Below, piece by piece: positions 11,401 through 17,400 of a stretch of DNA of 64,000 bases. Each line of letters starts with the position of its first letter. Within the stretch, counting starts at the first letter, position 1. The position numbers were made by a program. This DNA comes from Podarcis erhardii (taxonomy: Eukaryota): assembly GCA_964252035.1 (NCBI GenBank), contig OZ176203.1. The stretch is one strand, 5' to 3'.

Positions 11401-14400
11401 CTTCCTTCCCCCACTGCAGGAGATGCCATTCCCTCTAGGTTAGGCTTTTCAGGGGCTTTTCAGAGAGGGCAGCCCAGCAAGGCCCTGACATACAATTTTA
11501 TGTATTTAGTTCTAGTGGAAAATAATCTTAGCTGAGCTACCTTTAAAAGATAAGAAACAATTCTCTTCAGAATTACACTTTGATTGAAGTGCAAAAGTTC
11601 AAAGCCAAAACTAGCTAAATATATAGTGGAGAAAATAGCACACATTCCTTAGTAATGAAAAGTATAGCAATTTATCACATGCTACATTTGTCTAGTTTGA
11701 CTTTCATTTTTTATATATATCTAAAAGTTTAAAAAAAGGAAAATTATAGGTATATTTCATTGAAGCATAAAGAACTCCTGAAGGCTCATTGCAAACTCTC
11801 ACCCCGCACGTGAAATGAAAAAAGAGGAGGCGGCAGTGGATTTAAGTAACTGCAGACAATCGGTATTGTAAATAATTGAAAATGCAAGATATCAATTAAG
11901 TTAATTGCAAGTAGCCACAGGTACCTTATCTTCGCCCATATTAAAATGCAAAGCAATTATTGCAAAGTTGTGATAAGAAATGTACACAATGAAATTCTAA
12001 CTCCAGCCACAGAGAAGCTAACTTTTATGGCACAGAGCAGAAGTTAAAGCTATAGGGCACCATCAGCTAAGATGCTTCCCTGTGGAAGCTCCATTGACAA
12101 GAAAGGGGGTTTCATGATTTCCATAGAGGCCGGCAAAGGCAGCAGCAGGTGAGCCACACCTATGGGGAAGAAACATCTACAGCCTCTCATGGAGCATCTT
12201 GCACCCACATCCTCCATTTCTACTGCAGTGAACAGGTGACCTAGCAAGCAGAGTTACTGCGGTTGGTTGGTTGGATGGATCTTTTTAGCACACTTTTTAG
12301 AGCACAGCAAACTGTACAAGATGTCTGCGTGCTCCACGTGGCATGGATGACGGCAGTAGGAAGGGACTCGCCTCTTGCTGCTCCTTGAGTCAAGTGCTCA
12401 ATTTCTGCTGCAGCAGAGAGGCAGCCTGGGAATAGGTGTTCCTAGACTTTGTTAAACGGGATGTTTTGAATGCTGAGGCACCAACTATAAGGGATGATTG
12501 CGGGCAGTTCCTGGTGTGGCACTGCTGGGTGGGCATGTCCCTTTGGTGAGAGGATGCAGCAGTAAGGAAGGCCAAGATGCGCTACTACACAATAATTATG
12601 TCTTGTGGTGAGTAATAAGCTTGGTATATGGGCTAGATAGTATACATGACAAGAAGGTCATTTTATTTTTTCTCCTCTGACTGGAGTTTAAGAGAATAAG
12701 TGTGATTTTGGTGCATTTGGGATGGCTGAGCAAAGGGTGAAGCGATGAGCAACATTGCCATTGATCCTGATGGGAGTTCATAACATGTTACAGGGTGAAA
12801 TTGGTAAACCTGATGAATTTTTAAAACAAAAATTTCTAGTTGCTGTGAAGAGGAAGATTTAGGATGTACAAAAAATACACAGAAAAATAAAGTTTGCGTG
12901 TTTTGAAAGATAACAAAAGCTTTCAGAGTCAGGCCCAACCCCACATCAAGTGCAGGAGCCCAAAGCGCCAGACATGTGGCCTGCCAAGTGAGGCGAATGC
13001 CAGGGCCCTCCGTGGCTGCCACTGGCCTCCTTTTATCTGTCTAGCCCTGAGACACTTTGGAAGAGGCACGCAAGCCTTTAAGAGAGTGTTTGAATTACAC
13101 CACCCATGTTGTCAAGTCATGTGACCAAGTGAGAGGGACTTAAGATCCACCTTAAGTTCCCCCTTTCTGGCCCCACCTCTGACACGCCCCTAGGTTAAAT
13201 TTACACATACAGAGTATTTTTATTGTGCTCAGGGTTTTTAACATATCTGTGTGAAGAAGAAAAAAACCCCCCTCACAATTTTACATTAGAAGGGTGAGAC
13301 ACGTGGTTTAATATCATAAATAAATAGCCCTTGTTTCACACAATGCAACCCAAAGAAAACCATGTCCTCTTTAGTGCAAATGGGAAGGAAAGGCTTAAAC
13401 AGTCCCTCTTCGTGTGGATGTTGGGGTCCCAAGTAAAACTGCCAGCTCCCTCCCCGATATTGATTTCAAAACACCCACACAGCCCTACCACCTAGGCAGC
13501 CCTTAAATATTAGTTCTATAAATTTTATGGGGCAAAATGGAAGCAGTAAACCCTTTTCTAAAATTATTGTTTCCTACTCCATAATGTTTTAGCTGTTCTT
13601 ATTTTATCTGTCAGCAGCCTTGAGTCAGGTAAAAGGCAGGGTAGTAGTAGTAGTAGTACTAGTAGTAAATAAGTTTGTTTATTGAAGTGCTTATGTTCAT
13701 GGGAATACATGACTCAAGCTTGCCTTGACTTATTAATTTGGTTAGCTGGTGGATTTTTGTTCGGTTGGGTTGATTTTTTCTAAGCCTAACCCTGTCTTTT
13801 AATTGGATTGTTTTACTTATGCTATAATGTTTGCTTTATTGGATTCCTTTAACTTGTTTTTAACATTTATGTGAGCAGCTTTGTGCACTGATAACAAAAA
13901 GGCCTGATAGGAATTCTCCTAATAAATTAATGGGCAACAATTTTTTACTTTTTGAATGTTGTCTAGATTTCTACAACTGATTTAGGGTATTTTTGCACTG
14001 CTGAATCAGGAAATGGCATCCGTTTCTCTCCATCAGGTCAGGTTTACTGTAAACTGAATGGTGAGCATTGATAAAGGTAAGTACACGTAAATTGCATGTT
14101 GCTTCACCATTTTTCAAACTTCAGGGCTTGAACTTCCGTTTCTTGGAACTCCTGGAATGCTCAGCGCCAGGGAGGTCTCTCTTCAGAGTCCAACAGTAGT
14201 CAGCCATCATGACTGCGTCCCAGCGACCCTGATACCTGGTCTCCATCTCTTTCATGTCCTGATGGAATCTCTCCCCCTGCTCGTCACTCATTGAACCCAG
14301 GTTCTCAGGAAACCGGTCCATATGTGAAAATAGGTAGTGCATCTTGACGCTCATGTTGCAGTCCAGGTTTCTGAAAGCAGTCAGCATGTTGTTGACAAGT

Positions 14401-17400
14401 TCTGCGTAGTTTCTGGCCTTATTGTTGCCAAGAAAGTTCTTCACTACCAGAACAAATGCCTTCCACGCTTCCAGTTCCACTTCGTTCATTGAGTTTCCGA
14501 ACTCTGGATCTCTGATGAGCAGACGGATCTGAGGACCGTCAAAGATGCCAGCTTTCAACTTCTCCATGGTCAACCCTAGAAAAGCCTGGCACAAGTAAGT
14601 GAAGCAGTCACCATCCTTGTCCAGAGCCTTGGTGAACTGCTTGATTAAGCCAAGCTTGATGTGCAGCGGTGGGAAGACTATTCTGTCTCTGTCCACCAGA
14701 GGGTCGTTGATGACGTTCCTTTTTCTGCAAGGCACCAATTCCTCCCGCACAGGGCAGTCCTTCTTCGTGTAATGCTGAGCACAATCCCACATGCACAGAA
14801 AACATGGGTACTTGGTGAAGCCAGACTGTTGTCCCAACAAAAAGTTCACCAGCTTCAGGTCAACACATATAAACCACTTATGCTGATCATAACCAATTTT
14901 CTCCAGCACATACTTCACCGCTTCATAGTTCTCCTTCAGTGTACTCGAGTGAGCCAGGGGTATAGAGGCAAACTGGTTGCCTTTGTGTAGCAGAACACAT
15001 TTCAGTGATCGCTTGCTGCTGTCAATGAACAGTCTCCAATCTTTGGGTTCGTACTGTGGCACTCCAAGCTTGAGCAGAAGCTGCACAATATCTGCACAGT
15101 ACACCAAGTCCTTCTCTTCTGAGAAAAAATGGAGGTTTTATGACTTCAAACTGATCCTTTTTCGACATAATCACCCAGAACTATCAGACCTGAATACTTC
15201 TTGTCATTAAAATAATCATTTCCAATCAAAACAATTATTCAACATGGCATTTTACCCCCACCAACTTCTTCTAAAATGCTCCACACAAGCGTACATGTGA
15301 ACAAAAATGTAAAAAAACGACATGTGGCCATAGCTCAAAAACTTGACCTGATTGAGCAAAACCAATGTGATTTTTGGATTCAGCGCATCAGATTCATCCT
15401 AAATCAACTGAAAAAATGCAGATAAAAATTTGTTGTTGACCAGCGTAAATAATGCCCTCAGATTAGATATATTGGAAATATCAACTGATTTCTTCTCGAG
15501 TTGCTATGCCACTCTAAGGTAGATTTCAAGTGGTTTAATGCTCATTTGTGCCGGTTAGTTCAGACAGACGCCATCTGCACCAGGCATTGGAAGCAGCGCT
15601 GCACCCTTTTAAACAGTCCTGGCACCCCAGGAAGAATCCTGGAACTGCTGTTTGTGCAGCTTACTGAGAGATGTTCTGATCAGAGAACTACAATTCCCAG
15701 AGTTCCCGGGGGAACGGGTTTGATCATTAAACCTCTCTTGGAATTGTAGCTCCAAGGGAGAATATGGGCCTCCTAACAACTCTCTGCACCCTTACCAAAC
15801 TATATTTCCCAGGATTCTTTGGGGGAAGTAAGTAATAATGGTTAGAAACAGCAGTGCTTCTGCATACCAGTTGCTGGAAACCACAGGAGGAGACAGGGCT
15901 CAGTGCTTGAATCCTCTTTGAGGCTTCTCACAGGCTTCACACTGTGGGAACAGGACCCTGGACTAGATGGGTCATTGGCCTGACCCAGCAGCTCTTCTGG
16001 CATTCTTATGACTGTTGAAAGTGGTGCTGCTTGAAATGTATTGTGCAGATGGGACTTGAGTAACTTACACCTGCTGACCCAGAAGCTAGTCCCACTGCAT
16101 TCAATGGCACAAAGTAAGCTTGGATGCAGGTGGCGCTGTGGTCTAAACCACAGATCCTAGGGCCTGCCAATCAGAAGGTCAGGGTTTGAATCCCCACAAC
16201 GGGGTGAGCTCCCATTGTTCGGTCCCTGCTCCTGCCCACCTAGCAGTTCGAAAGCACGTCAAAGTGCAAGTAGATAAATAGGTACTGCTCCAGCGGAAAG
16301 GTAAACGGTGTTTCCGTGCGCTGCTCTGGTTTCACCAGAAGCAGCTTAGTCATGCCGGCCACATGACCTGGAAAAACTGTCTGTAGACAAAACGTCTGCT
16401 CCCTCAGACAGTAAAGCGAGATGAGAGCCGCAACCCCAGAGTTGTTTGGGACTGGACTTAACTGTCAGGGGTCCTTTACCTTTACCTTTTAAGCTTGTCA
16501 AGATGCTTTGTCAGATGTAAAAACAAACAAGCAAAACCAAGCATACCAGAGACCAGAGTAAATCTATCATTAGACTTTAACATACCCTCCAAGGAATTTT
16601 AGGGGACACTGTATTCATGGCCAGAGAGCATCTGGTACTATACCCAAATGTTGCTAGCTCTTCAGCCAGGAGATGGTTGCAAACCATGGAAGTCCTTGGT
16701 CTGAACTTTGTGGCCAGAGGTGGGCTGTAGCTTTGAGTTAAGTGGGATGAGGGAAGCTAAGAAGGTCCTGTCTGACCTTATACAGCTACTGAGCTGTTCA
16801 TAGCCTTGTTGATCCTGCAAAACTTCTTGCGACAATAGCTCTGCTTCAGAGAGCATTCCTGGTGGCAGTGTGGGTGGGTGTTTTCCATAGTGGAGCACAG
16901 TGGCAAACGTTTATTTACCCACACTCTTTAGGGCTTCATAGGTCACCACCAGCAACTTCAATGCAATGCATAATGCTAGGGGCAGCTGCTCCAAACACTG
17001 AAATTCTCCCATGGGCTGCACACCCCTGGCATGTAGCGGGCTGCAGTGCTCTGCATTAGTTGAAGCTCCAAAGTGTTAAGAAGGACAGCCCAATGGAAAA
17101 AGCATGTTGCGGTAGTATGTTAGGTTTATGCCTGTCTGAGCATGTTTTACATTGCCATTTTCCCACTAATTTTGTTTGTCCCTGGCTAATTCAAAGCATG
17201 ATGTTCTTTAATAGGTTTCTGTTATGGCTGCTGTTGGAGTCAGGGATCTTTGAAGGAATTAGAATACAAACTGGGTAAATAATGTACCATGTAGATGACT
17301 TAGCATGTATTACATAAAATTTAAATTTTGAATGTATTGCAAAGAGAAACTTAGAGTATTTCTCCTGTGATCATTCATTTGCTTCTGGTTTGTTTAAACA

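What the first reader, a model, noticed from the sequence alone, without database searches (positions are those of the whole stretch)
13931..15445. Chapaev3 transposon with an uninterrupted 328-codon catalytic core: candidate horizontal transfer
Seen: an open frame retaining D (LFIDSS), D (CVDLK), CxxC, PPLHIKLG, E (SDEQGERF) and a basic C-terminus, between imperfect TIRs with TAA flanks. The N-terminal part is deleted (junction near 15135). WDCAQHY and KDCP look like decay of WDSRA..QH and KDWP. Established: Chapaev3 belongs to the CMC superfamily and has been reported as horizontally transferred among invertebrates and vertebrates, including lizards. Inference: a relatively young invasion; a shared-deletion non-autonomous subfamily or a co-opted copy is possible.
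Basis: partly seen in the sequence, partly recalled or inferred. Interest (0 to 1): 0.68.

Follow-up and report, generated by a model that had tools for sequence, protein, structure and literature searches.

The report
Truncated, decaying Chapaev3 transposon in a lizard
This is a dead, internally deleted copy of a Chapaev3 cut-and-paste transposon in a wall-lizard-like genome; its closest named relatives are in beetles, shrimps and leeches, which fits the horizontal spread already known for this group.

Summary
The minus strand has a stop-to-stop frame of 338 codons (not 328) at 14124-15137. It carries the DDE residues and the C(2)C, LH and H(4)H motifs that the literature gives for Chapaev3. 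It aligns to residues 230-569 of full-length relatives of 553-569 aa. The N-terminal 40%, with the zinc-finger (Chapa-like) region, is missing from about 15138.

The copy shows no sign of function or co-option:
- No Met occurs before residue 116, downstream of both catalytic Asp.
- Its 10 private substitutions and one 9-bp deletion fall on conserved and variable columns at random (5 of 10 in columns at least 90% conserved, against 10 of 176 between intact relatives).
- At the inferred 1.4-1.9% nucleotide divergence, an open frame is expected about half the time.

A neighbouring CR1 element points to a lacertid host (93-98% identity to Podarcis muralis proteins). The transposase nests among shrimp, leech and firefly sequences (77-82% identity), away from another squamate's copies (65%). 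An AU test rejects a single squamate clade. This supports horizontal transfer of the lineage and a fairly young copy. Timing, copy number and sharing of the deletion could not be tested, because no animal genome DNA was available.

Verdict: an ordinary new member of a known kind.

The parts
13928..13930 (.). TAA next to the left end: either a target-site duplication (TWA type) or the mutated terminal triplet of the element
   Evidence: In register with the right end, these three bases face the terminal CGC of the other end.
13931..14045 (-). 3' terminal and subterminal region of the element (relative to the transposase strand). Its inverted similarity to the other end is imperfect.
   Evidence: A2, 76% column identity with indels. 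(13959-14045 against 15339-15425, 69% over 87 nt, E=0.002).
14046..14120 (-). 3' untranslated spacer between the stop codon and the subterminal repeat
   Evidence: No homology was found for it.
14121..14123 (-). TGA stop codon of the transposase frame, at the same place as the C-terminus of the relatives
14124..15137 (-). 338-codon open frame, equal to the C-terminal ~60% (catalytic core) of a Chapaev3 transposase. It has D39, D93, E289, C(2)C, LH and H(4)H. The first Met is at residue 116 (14790-14792).
14754..14783 (-). Decay cluster: S119C (14781-14783), an in-frame loss of three codons between residues 119 and 120 (one of them an Arg kept in 97% of relatives), and W128C (14754-14756; Trp in 99-100% of relatives)
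15138..15143 (-). Deletion junction. Homology to transposases stops here, a TAA stop lies at 15138-15140, and about 225 N-terminal codons are absent.
15144..15445 (-). 5' non-coding part of the element, with the 5' terminal and subterminal inverted region (about 15339-15445). The terminus reads CGC on the transposase strand instead of the canonical CAC.
   Evidence: The canonical CAC is (paper text).
15446..15448 (.). TAA next to the right end (putative TWA target-site duplication)

Best explanation
The region 13931-15445 is one internally deleted, non-autonomous and now decaying copy of a Chapaev3 DNA transposon. Yuan and Wessler place this group in the CMC superfamily; Kapitonov and Koonin place it with Transib. 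The copy lies in the genome of a lacertid lizard, Podarcis or a close relative.

How the intact element works (established knowledge of the family, not shown here):
- A transposase of about 555-570 aa binds the CAC...GTG terminal repeats through its N-terminal zinc-finger (Chapa) region.
- Its RNase-H-type DDE core cuts the element out.
- It re-inserts the element at TWA, which is duplicated.

What this copy has lost (shown):
- About 225 N-terminal codons, and with them the start codon and the DNA-binding part.
- Perfect termini.

What has happened since (shown):
- It has picked up about 14 amino-acid changes and a 9-bp deletion, without regard to conservation.

It therefore makes no transposase and has no host function (inferred). 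The frame is still open only because the copy is young, about 1.4-1.9% nucleotide divergence from a consensus-like relative (inferred). The lineage it belongs to moves between distant animal hosts (shown at the protein level). It probably reached lacertids by horizontal transfer (inferred).
For: Identity.
- E down to 4.7e-222, with full-length relatives of 553-569 aa.
- in 63 diverse relatives D39, D93, E289 and H272 are invariant, and C112, C115, H159 and H267 are nearly so. This matches the C(2)C, LH, H(4)H plus DDE signature quoted for Chapaev in PMC4079192.
- Relatives have an N-terminal zinc-finger region. Sub-threshold zf-AD hits occur in 30 of 63. RAG1_imp_bd hits residues 43-157 of P0064 at E=6e-4. 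This fits the Chapa domain described in PMC4411706.
- Lengths of 556-562 aa equal those printed for Garfield and Merrow.

Truncation.

No start: the first Met is at residue 116.

Neutral decay.
- The 10 window-private substitutions have mean column conservation 0.736, against 0.743 for all columns (permutation P=0.55).
- 5 of 10 lie in columns at least 90% conserved, against 10 of 176 differences between four pairs of intact relatives (Fisher P=3.4e-4).
- The sister P0002 has 1 private change.

Open frame expected: 3.7% of substitutions make a stop, so P(no stop) is 0.50-0.59 at the inferred divergence.

Youth: the terminal branch is 0.051, against 0 for P0002. CpG o/e is 0.38-0.40, against 0.20 for the window.

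Host: 16 of the 120 listed CR1 hits are Podarcis muralis at 93-98% identity; the 5 Anolis hits are 70-81%.

Transfer.
- 14 of the 120 listed hits carry organism names. These include firefly at 82%, shrimp 77%, leech 76/74% and goby 67%, but the squamate Rhineura at only 65/62%.
- In the tree, the window sits in a starred 20-row clade with shrimp, leech, firefly, goby and crab; Rhineura sits elsewhere.
- The AU test rejects window plus Rhineura as one clade (delta lnL 186.6, p=1.8e-101).
Against: - No Repbase or Dfam reference could be compared. The name Chapaev3 rests on motifs, lengths, domain content and host overlap with the literature, not on alignment to a named Chapaev3 sequence. Pfam has no model for the core (0 families) and no solved structure matches.
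- The termini are not canonical. The right end reads CGC, and the left end lacks or has mutated the triplet.
- The ends are much less alike (69-76%) than a 1.5%-diverged copy with perfect ancestral TIRs would give. Either the ancestral subterminal repeats were imperfect, or the non-coding ends are older or faster-evolving than the ORF. The second case would weaken the claim of purely neutral evolution.
- The age estimate assumes that P0002, an unnamed record of unknown host, is ancestor-like.
- The AU group was named after the tree was seen. Two TE lineages in squamates could also be old paralogous lineages. Only protein identities, not synonymous distances, argue for transfer.
- Ten substitutions is a small sample.
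Confidence: 0.85

Rival explanations
1. The copy belongs to a non-autonomous subfamily that all share the ~15138 deletion. A full-length partner in the same genome mobilised it, or still mobilises it, in trans.
For: Internal-deletion derivatives are the usual non-autonomous form of DNA transposons; Novick et al. describe this for Anolis hAT and Helitron. Both element ends are still recognisable. A 95-96% identical relative with more upstream coding sequence exists in the databases (P0002).
Against: There is only one copy in the 64-kb window. None of the five close relatives that extend upstream shares the junction. The termini are damaged, with CGC on one side and the triplet missing or mutated on the other, so this particular copy is unlikely to be cut now. 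No genome was available to count copies.
Confidence: 0.12
2. The open frame is kept by selection. It would be a co-opted (domesticated) N-terminally truncated transposase core, expressed from an upstream exon or an internal start.
For: At 338 codons it is the longest open frame in the window. The DDE, C(2)C, LH and H(4)H residues are all retained. The non-coding ends look more degraded than the ORF.
Against: No Met occurs before residue 116, past both catalytic Asp. The DNA-binding N-terminus is gone. Private changes include W128C, S119C, N52K, M96L and G259D in columns at least 93% conserved, and the loss of a 97%-conserved Arg. Their distribution cannot be told from random and differs from that between intact relatives (P=3.4e-4). 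The open frame is expected by chance at this age. TIR remnants are still attached. No Podarcis protein model appears among the best 120 hits.
Confidence: 0.03
3. The element was inherited vertically. It would be an old squamate Chapaev3 lineage that happens to be well preserved, with no horizontal transfer into lacertids.
For: Chapaev3 families exist in other squamates: Anolis and Rhineura. No DNA-level test of transfer could be run.
Against: The window protein is 77-82% identical to shrimp and firefly proteins but 62-65% to Rhineura's. It nests within an invertebrate-rich clade, and squamate monophyly is rejected. The copy is young by protein divergence and CpG content, whereas the Anolis Chapaev families are 12-35% diverged and extinct.
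Confidence: 0.1

Closest known systems
Merrow and Garfield families of Chapaev3 (Zhang et al. 2014, PMC4079192; passages and sections 7 and 14 read)
   Same: The transposase length of full-length relatives (553-569 aa) matches the printed 562 aa (78+484) and 556 aa (78+478). The C(2)C, LH, H(4)H and DDE motifs are shared. The TWA-type flank and the distribution across distant animals with host-incongruent similarity also match.
   Different: No Merrow or Garfield sequence was available, so family assignment is open. The named hosts of the window's clade (Penaeus, Helobdella, Pyrocoelia, Knipowitschia, Chionoecetes) are not the hosts listed for Merrow or Garfield. Those families were not reported from lizards. 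The window copy lacks the whole exon-1 region and about 150 codons of exon 2.
Anolis carolinensis Chapaev3-1_AC, Chapaev3-2_AC and the Conan MITEs (Novick et al. 2010, PMC3014272; Zhang et al. 2014)
   Same: These are Chapaev3 in a squamate, with TWA TSDs. The printed TIR starts are CACTGRWAAACA and CACWGSCCAAC. They resemble the window's right end read on the transposase strand (CGCTGGTCAACA; 10 of 12 and 9 of 11 positions, my count).
   Different: The host here is a lacertid, not Anolis. The Anolis families are described as extinct and 12-35% diverged, whereas this copy is about 4% from its nearest protein relative. The Anolis sequences themselves could not be compared.
Internally deleted non-autonomous DNA transposons in general
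   Same: Both ends are kept, the middle or 5' coding part is lost, and the copy depends on a transposase made elsewhere.
   Different: Here most of the catalytic core is retained and still open, which is less usual than a short MITE-like derivative. The termini are damaged.

Membership tests
Chapaev3 transposon lineage (by descent) | DDE catalytic triad at conserved positions of the transposase core | tested here: met
   D39, D93 and E289 are invariant in the 63-sequence alignment A3 and present in the window.
Chapaev3 transposon lineage (by descent) | C(2)C, LH and H(4)H motifs between the second D and the E (quoted from Yuan and Wessler by PMC4079192) | tested here: met
   CFLC (C112/C115), L158-H159 and H267-x4-H272 are present and invariant or nearly so in relatives.
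Chapaev3 transposon lineage (by descent) | 3-bp TWA target-site duplication | tested here: inconclusive
   TAA lies on both sides if the left boundary is 13931. In register with the right end, however, the left TAA occupies the terminal triplet. The A...T context reported is not seen. TAA is frequent in the flanks.
Chapaev3 transposon lineage (by descent) | Termini 5'-CAC ... GTG-3' | tested here: inconclusive
   The right end reads CGC on the transposase strand (one mismatch). The left end lacks the triplet or reads TAA. A single decayed copy cannot give the family consensus.
Chapaev3 transposon lineage (by descent) | Sequence homology to a named Chapaev3 reference (Repbase or Dfam) | not testable with these tools
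   No repeat library or animal genome collection is on hand. Pfam has no model and PDB has no match. Indirect support: Helobdella robusta, a host of Chapaev3 in Fig. 1 of PMC4079192, supplies proteins 74-76% identical.
Autonomous Chapaev3 element (functional transposase) | Full-length transposase with the N-terminal Chapa zinc-finger region and a start codon | tested here: not met
   Only residues ~230-569 of relatives are represented. The first Met is at residue 116. The zinc-finger region is seen only in relatives.
Domesticated (co-opted) transposase gene | Purifying selection on the coding sequence | tested here: not met
   By a protein-level proxy only, private changes are spread at random over conserved and variable columns. 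This differs from the differences between intact relatives. dN/dS itself could not be computed.
Domesticated (co-opted) transposase gene | Orthologous, immobile single-copy locus across species, and expression | not testable with these tools
   No host genomes or RNA-seq are available.
Horizontally transferred transposon | Similarity between distant hosts too high for vertical descent, and a tree incongruent with the hosts | tested here: met
   Identity is 82% to a firefly, 77% to a shrimp and 76% to a leech, against 65% to another squamate. Tree and AU test. This is at the protein level only.
Horizontally transferred transposon | Synonymous distance between hosts' copies far below that of host genes, and patchy presence among the host's relatives | not testable with these tools
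   No nucleotide sequences of relatives or squamate assemblies could be fetched.

The most novel reading that the evidence does not exclude
A Chapaev3 lineage otherwise seen in crustaceans, leeches, beetles and a goby invaded lacertid lizards by horizontal transfer within roughly the last 10-30 million years. The invasion is not yet described in print, and this copy is one of its deletion derivatives. The 95-96% identical unnamed relative P0002 could then come from either the lizard or the donor side.
Probability: 0.45. Interest if true: 0.4.

Novelty: new member of a known kind. Interest (0 to 1): 0.25.

Why it matters
Horizontal transfer of Chapaev3 between invertebrates and vertebrates is already documented (PMC4079192). 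Another host lineage adds a data point rather than a principle. If copy counts and dating in lacertid genomes confirmed a recent invasion, it would be a useful marker for lacertid phylogeny. It would also be one more case for studying the routes by which DNA transposons reach reptiles, such as parasites or prey. The copy itself has no likely biological function.

Tried and rejected
- Pfam on the ORF: 0 families. Pfam on relatives gave only sub-threshold N-terminal zinc-finger and RAG1_imp_bd hits.
- PDB profile search: 0 matches at E<=10.
- Structure prediction was meant to check the RNase-H fold. No fold evidence was obtained and no fold search was run.
- ESM Atlas: no answer for this sequence; not pursued.
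- Search for other copies or MITE relatives in the window: none.
- Search for paralogous empty sites with the two 500-nt flanks: only self-hits.
- Search for N-terminal remnants in 15101-15700: only the junction itself and short chance matches.
- The repeat finder did not report the terminal repeats at all: 24 short chance-like pairs.
- Rejected: that the open frame by itself indicates selection.
- Rejected: Anolis as host.
- Literature. Searches for Chapaev with Podarcis, with Lacertidae/Lacerta/Zootoca, with squamate, and for CMC-Chapaev-3 with reptiles found no paper on Chapaev in lacertids. The only paper holding both Chapaev and Podarcis is a review that mentions them in separate contexts.
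- Not used: the genome-contig scan (bacteria and archaea only) and the phage, plasmid and E. coli collections, because they cannot hold this element's relatives.
- Closed: the metagenome and viral collections, so they stayed unchecked.
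Full report
WHAT IS THERE

The minus strand of 14121-15137 holds a stop-to-stop frame of 338 sense codons ending in TGA. It is the longest open frame in the window: of 46 frames of at least 110 aa, the next longest is a 250-aa reverse-transcriptase piece.
- LFIDSS, with D39 at 15021-15023
- CVDLK, with D93 at 14859-14861
- CFLC, with C112 and C115
- PPLHIKLG, with L158-H159
- HYLFSH, with H267 and H272
- SDEQGERF, with E286 and E289
- a basic tail, SSKKRKFKP

The frame is not a chance ORF. 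3115 of 3888 scored candidates match at E<=1e-3, the best at 4.7e-222. A filter-free scan of 1.84 billion cluster representatives finds 10,798 clusters at E<=1e-3 and 686 at E<=1e-30.

WHAT FAMILY

Pfam has no model for the core (0 families), and no solved structure matches a profile of the family. The name therefore rests on printed definitions.

- Zhang et al. 2014 (PMC4079192; passages and sections 7 and 14 read) give these for Chapaev and Chapaev3: a DDE core with C(2)C, LH and H(4)H motifs, CAC...GTG termini, a TWA duplication, and transposases of 556 aa (Garfield) and 562 aa (Merrow).
- In an alignment of 63 relatives spanning 35-96% identity, D39, D93, E289 and H272 are invariant. C112, C115, H159 and H267 are nearly invariant.
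- Full-length relatives are 553-569 aa.
- Their N-termini give sub-threshold zinc-finger hits: zf-AD in 30 of 63. One gives a hit to the RAG1 N-terminal model (P0064 residues 43-157, E=6e-4, below the cut-off). This fits the 'Chapa' domain that Kapitonov and Koonin describe for Chapaev and Chapaev3 (PMC4411706, passages read).
- That paper groups Chapaev3 with Transib, whereas Yuan and Wessler, as quoted, group it in CMC.
- I could not align the ORF to any named Chapaev3 reference, so assignment to Merrow, Garfield, Conan or another family stays open.

TRUNCATION

tblastn of four full-length relatives finds a single locus in the window, 15134..14124, which covers only their C-terminal ~340 residues. 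Nothing else appears apart from one 41-aa chance hit at E=0.57. A permissive search of 15101-15700 with the N-terminal parts of five relatives finds only the junction itself.

Homology ends at about 15138-15143, where a TAA stop lies, so 'junction near 15135' is right. About 225 codons are gone, including the start codon and the zinc-finger region. The first in-frame Met is residue 116, downstream of both catalytic Asp. The remaining 5' part (15138-15445, 308 nt) is non-coding in all three frames.

ENDS

The two ends are inverted relative to each other, but only weakly alike:
- one blastn match, 13959-14045 against 15339-15425, 69% over 87 nt, E=0.002
- MAFFT, 76% column identity over 134 columns with indels
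- The repeat finder did not pick them up

Read on the transposase strand, the right end starts CGCTGGTCAACA. This resembles the TIR starts printed for Anolis Chapaev3 families (CACTGRWAAACA, CACWGSCCAAC) but has CGC for CAC. In the same register the left end is three bases short.

The left 'TAA' (13928-13930) is therefore either a TWA duplication next to a terminus that lost its CAC, or the mutated triplet itself. The right TAA (15446-15448) is clear. The A...T context reported by Zhang et al. is not seen. I rate the TSD and the termini as inconclusive. Either way, this copy's ends are damaged.

DECAY OR SELECTION

The nearest relative, P0002 (unnamed source, 424 aa), is 324/338 identical and has a zero-length branch in the tree. 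The window's branch is 0.051.

I used eight further relatives as outgroups. Conservation was measured on 95 relatives under 80% identical to the window. On that basis, 10 substitutions are private to the window and 1 to P0002. The window-private ones are:
- A18V
- N52K
- M96L
- S119C
- W128C
- L154V
- P187L
- Q206L
- G259D
- A324G

There is also an in-frame loss of three codons that removes an Arg kept in 97% of relatives.

| Measure | Window-private changes | Comparison |
|---|---|---|
| Mean column conservation | 0.736 | 0.743 for all columns (permutation P=0.55) |
| Changes in columns at least 90% conserved | 5 of 10 | 10 of 176 differences between four pairs of intact relatives (mean conservation 0.41-0.49) |

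The second contrast gives Fisher P=3.4e-4. This is the pattern of neutral decay, not of a protein kept by selection.

The open frame needs no selection. 3.7% of transition-weighted substitutions in this frame would create a stop. The 10-13 amino-acid changes imply about 15-19 substitutions (1.4-1.9%), so the chance of no stop is 0.50-0.59. At the 12-18% divergence reported for the Anolis families it would be about 0.001-0.01.

One caveat applies. The non-coding ends look more degraded than the ORF, and I cannot calibrate this without the family consensus.

HOST AND CONTEXT

The window is repeat-rich. Of 120 frames of at least 85 aa, four hit Pfam: three reverse-transcriptase pieces and one Sleeping-Beauty-type HTH. 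No host-gene domain was found.

The 250-aa CR1-type RT frame at 50983-51732 is 93-98% identical to 16 Podarcis muralis proteins among the 120 listed hits, and 70-81% to 5 Anolis carolinensis proteins. The host is therefore a lacertid, Podarcis or close to it, not Anolis.

The element's flanks are unique within the window. No second copy or MITE relative is present. The element is embedded in lizard-type sequence on both sides, so contamination is unlikely if the assembly is right. Nothing in the window was taken for human.

HORIZONTAL TRANSFER

Of the 120 best hits, 14 carry organism names:

| Organism | Group | Identity to window ORF |
|---|---|---|
| Pyrocoelia pectoralis | firefly | 82% and 63% |
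| Penaeus vannamei | shrimp | 77% |
| Helobdella robusta | leech | 76%, 74%, 81% (the last partial) |
| Chionoecetes opilio | crab | 73% |
| Knipowitschia caucasica | goby | 67% |
| Rhineura floridana | squamate | 65% and 62% |
| Aromia moschata | beetle | 66% |
| Caligus rogercresseyi | sea louse | 64% |
| Helicoverpa armigera | moth | 63% |
| Diaphorina citri | psyllid | 62% |

I built a tree of 41 rows that I chose from the 270 proteins then on hand: the window, 13 named, 21 unnamed and 6 distant. P0053 was left out as partial.
- The tree puts the window with P0002 inside a well-supported 20-row clade that also holds shrimp, leech, firefly, goby and crab.
- The two Rhineura proteins sit in another clade with a moth.
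- Forcing window plus Rhineura together costs 186.6 log-likelihood units (AU p=1.8e-101). The group was named after the tree was seen.

High identity to arthropods and annelids, lower identity to another squamate, and an incongruent tree are the classical signs of transfer. They match what is already published for Chapaev3. The elevated CpG content of the element (o/e 0.38-0.40, against 0.20 for the window) and its small private divergence fit a fairly recent arrival. With squamate neutral rates as I recall them (roughly 1-2e-9 per site per year; recalled, not from a call), 1.4-1.9% would be on the order of 10-20 million years. This is rough.

What I could not do:
- compare nucleotide sequences or compute dS or dN/dS
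- count copies in the host, or ask whether the 15138 junction is shared
- look at orthologous sites or RNA-seq

Five close relatives that extend upstream (P0002, P0014, P0019, P0025, P0029) do not share the junction. Three others start downstream of it and say nothing.

LITERATURE

Five searches combined Chapaev or CMC-Chapaev-3 with squamate, reptiles, Podarcis, Lacertidae/Lacerta/Zootoca, or vertebrate transfer. None found a paper on Chapaev in lacertids. The one paper with both words is a review that mentions them separately. Novick et al. 2010 (PMC3014272, passages read) describe the Anolis Chapaev3 families as extinct and 12-35% diverged. The supplements of Zhang et al. (TIR and TSD tables, transposase alignment) were closed and may bear on the comparison of termini.

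VERDICT

This is a real, correctly recognised Chapaev3 remnant. It is internally deleted, without a start codon, with damaged ends, and decaying neutrally. It is young enough that its frame is still open by chance. The lineage shows protein-level evidence of horizontal transfer, as is known for the group. A lacertid host appears to be new to the searchable literature. Co-option is not supported. This is a new member of a known kind, of low to moderate interest.

Noticed in passing
window 50157-52375 (+): A CR1-type LINE lies here in three long open pieces (184, 250 and 153 aa). The RT piece at 50983-51732 is 93-98% identical to many Podarcis muralis proteins. It is a young LINE copy and gives the best clue to the host.
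   Followed up: partly
window 9986-10246 (+): An 87-aa frame carries a Sleeping-Beauty-type transposase HTH domain (PF25787, E=2e-17). It is a Tc1/mariner fragment.
   Followed up: no
window 166-600 (+) and 61836-62168 (-): Two further reverse-transcriptase fragments (RVT_1, E=6e-6 and 4e-5). The peptides at 1041-1391, 6920-7288 and 51914-52375 share a CR1-like C-terminal motif.
   Followed up: no
window 26948-27775 (+) and 46389-46775 (-): Two frames encode nearly the same peptide (...NRLxLNPDKTEVLFWGDRG...LNGxTVPLKDQV...), so they are two copies of one repeat family. There is no Pfam hit.
   Followed up: no
window 15407-15424 and 15120-15137 (-): The 5' terminal region and the deletion junction both read ...LHFFS in one frame, from a similar ~13-nt T-rich string. 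This could be chance in a T-run or a trace of how the deletion arose.
   Followed up: no
window ~5380-5420 and ~57330-57365: Translations with runs of THTHTH indicate (CA)n-type microsatellites.
   Followed up: no
relatives P0064, and 30 of 63 members of A3: The N-termini of full-length relatives give weak hits to zf-AD and to the RAG1 N-terminal (importin-binding) model. This echoes the published Chapa-RAG1 link.
   Followed up: partly
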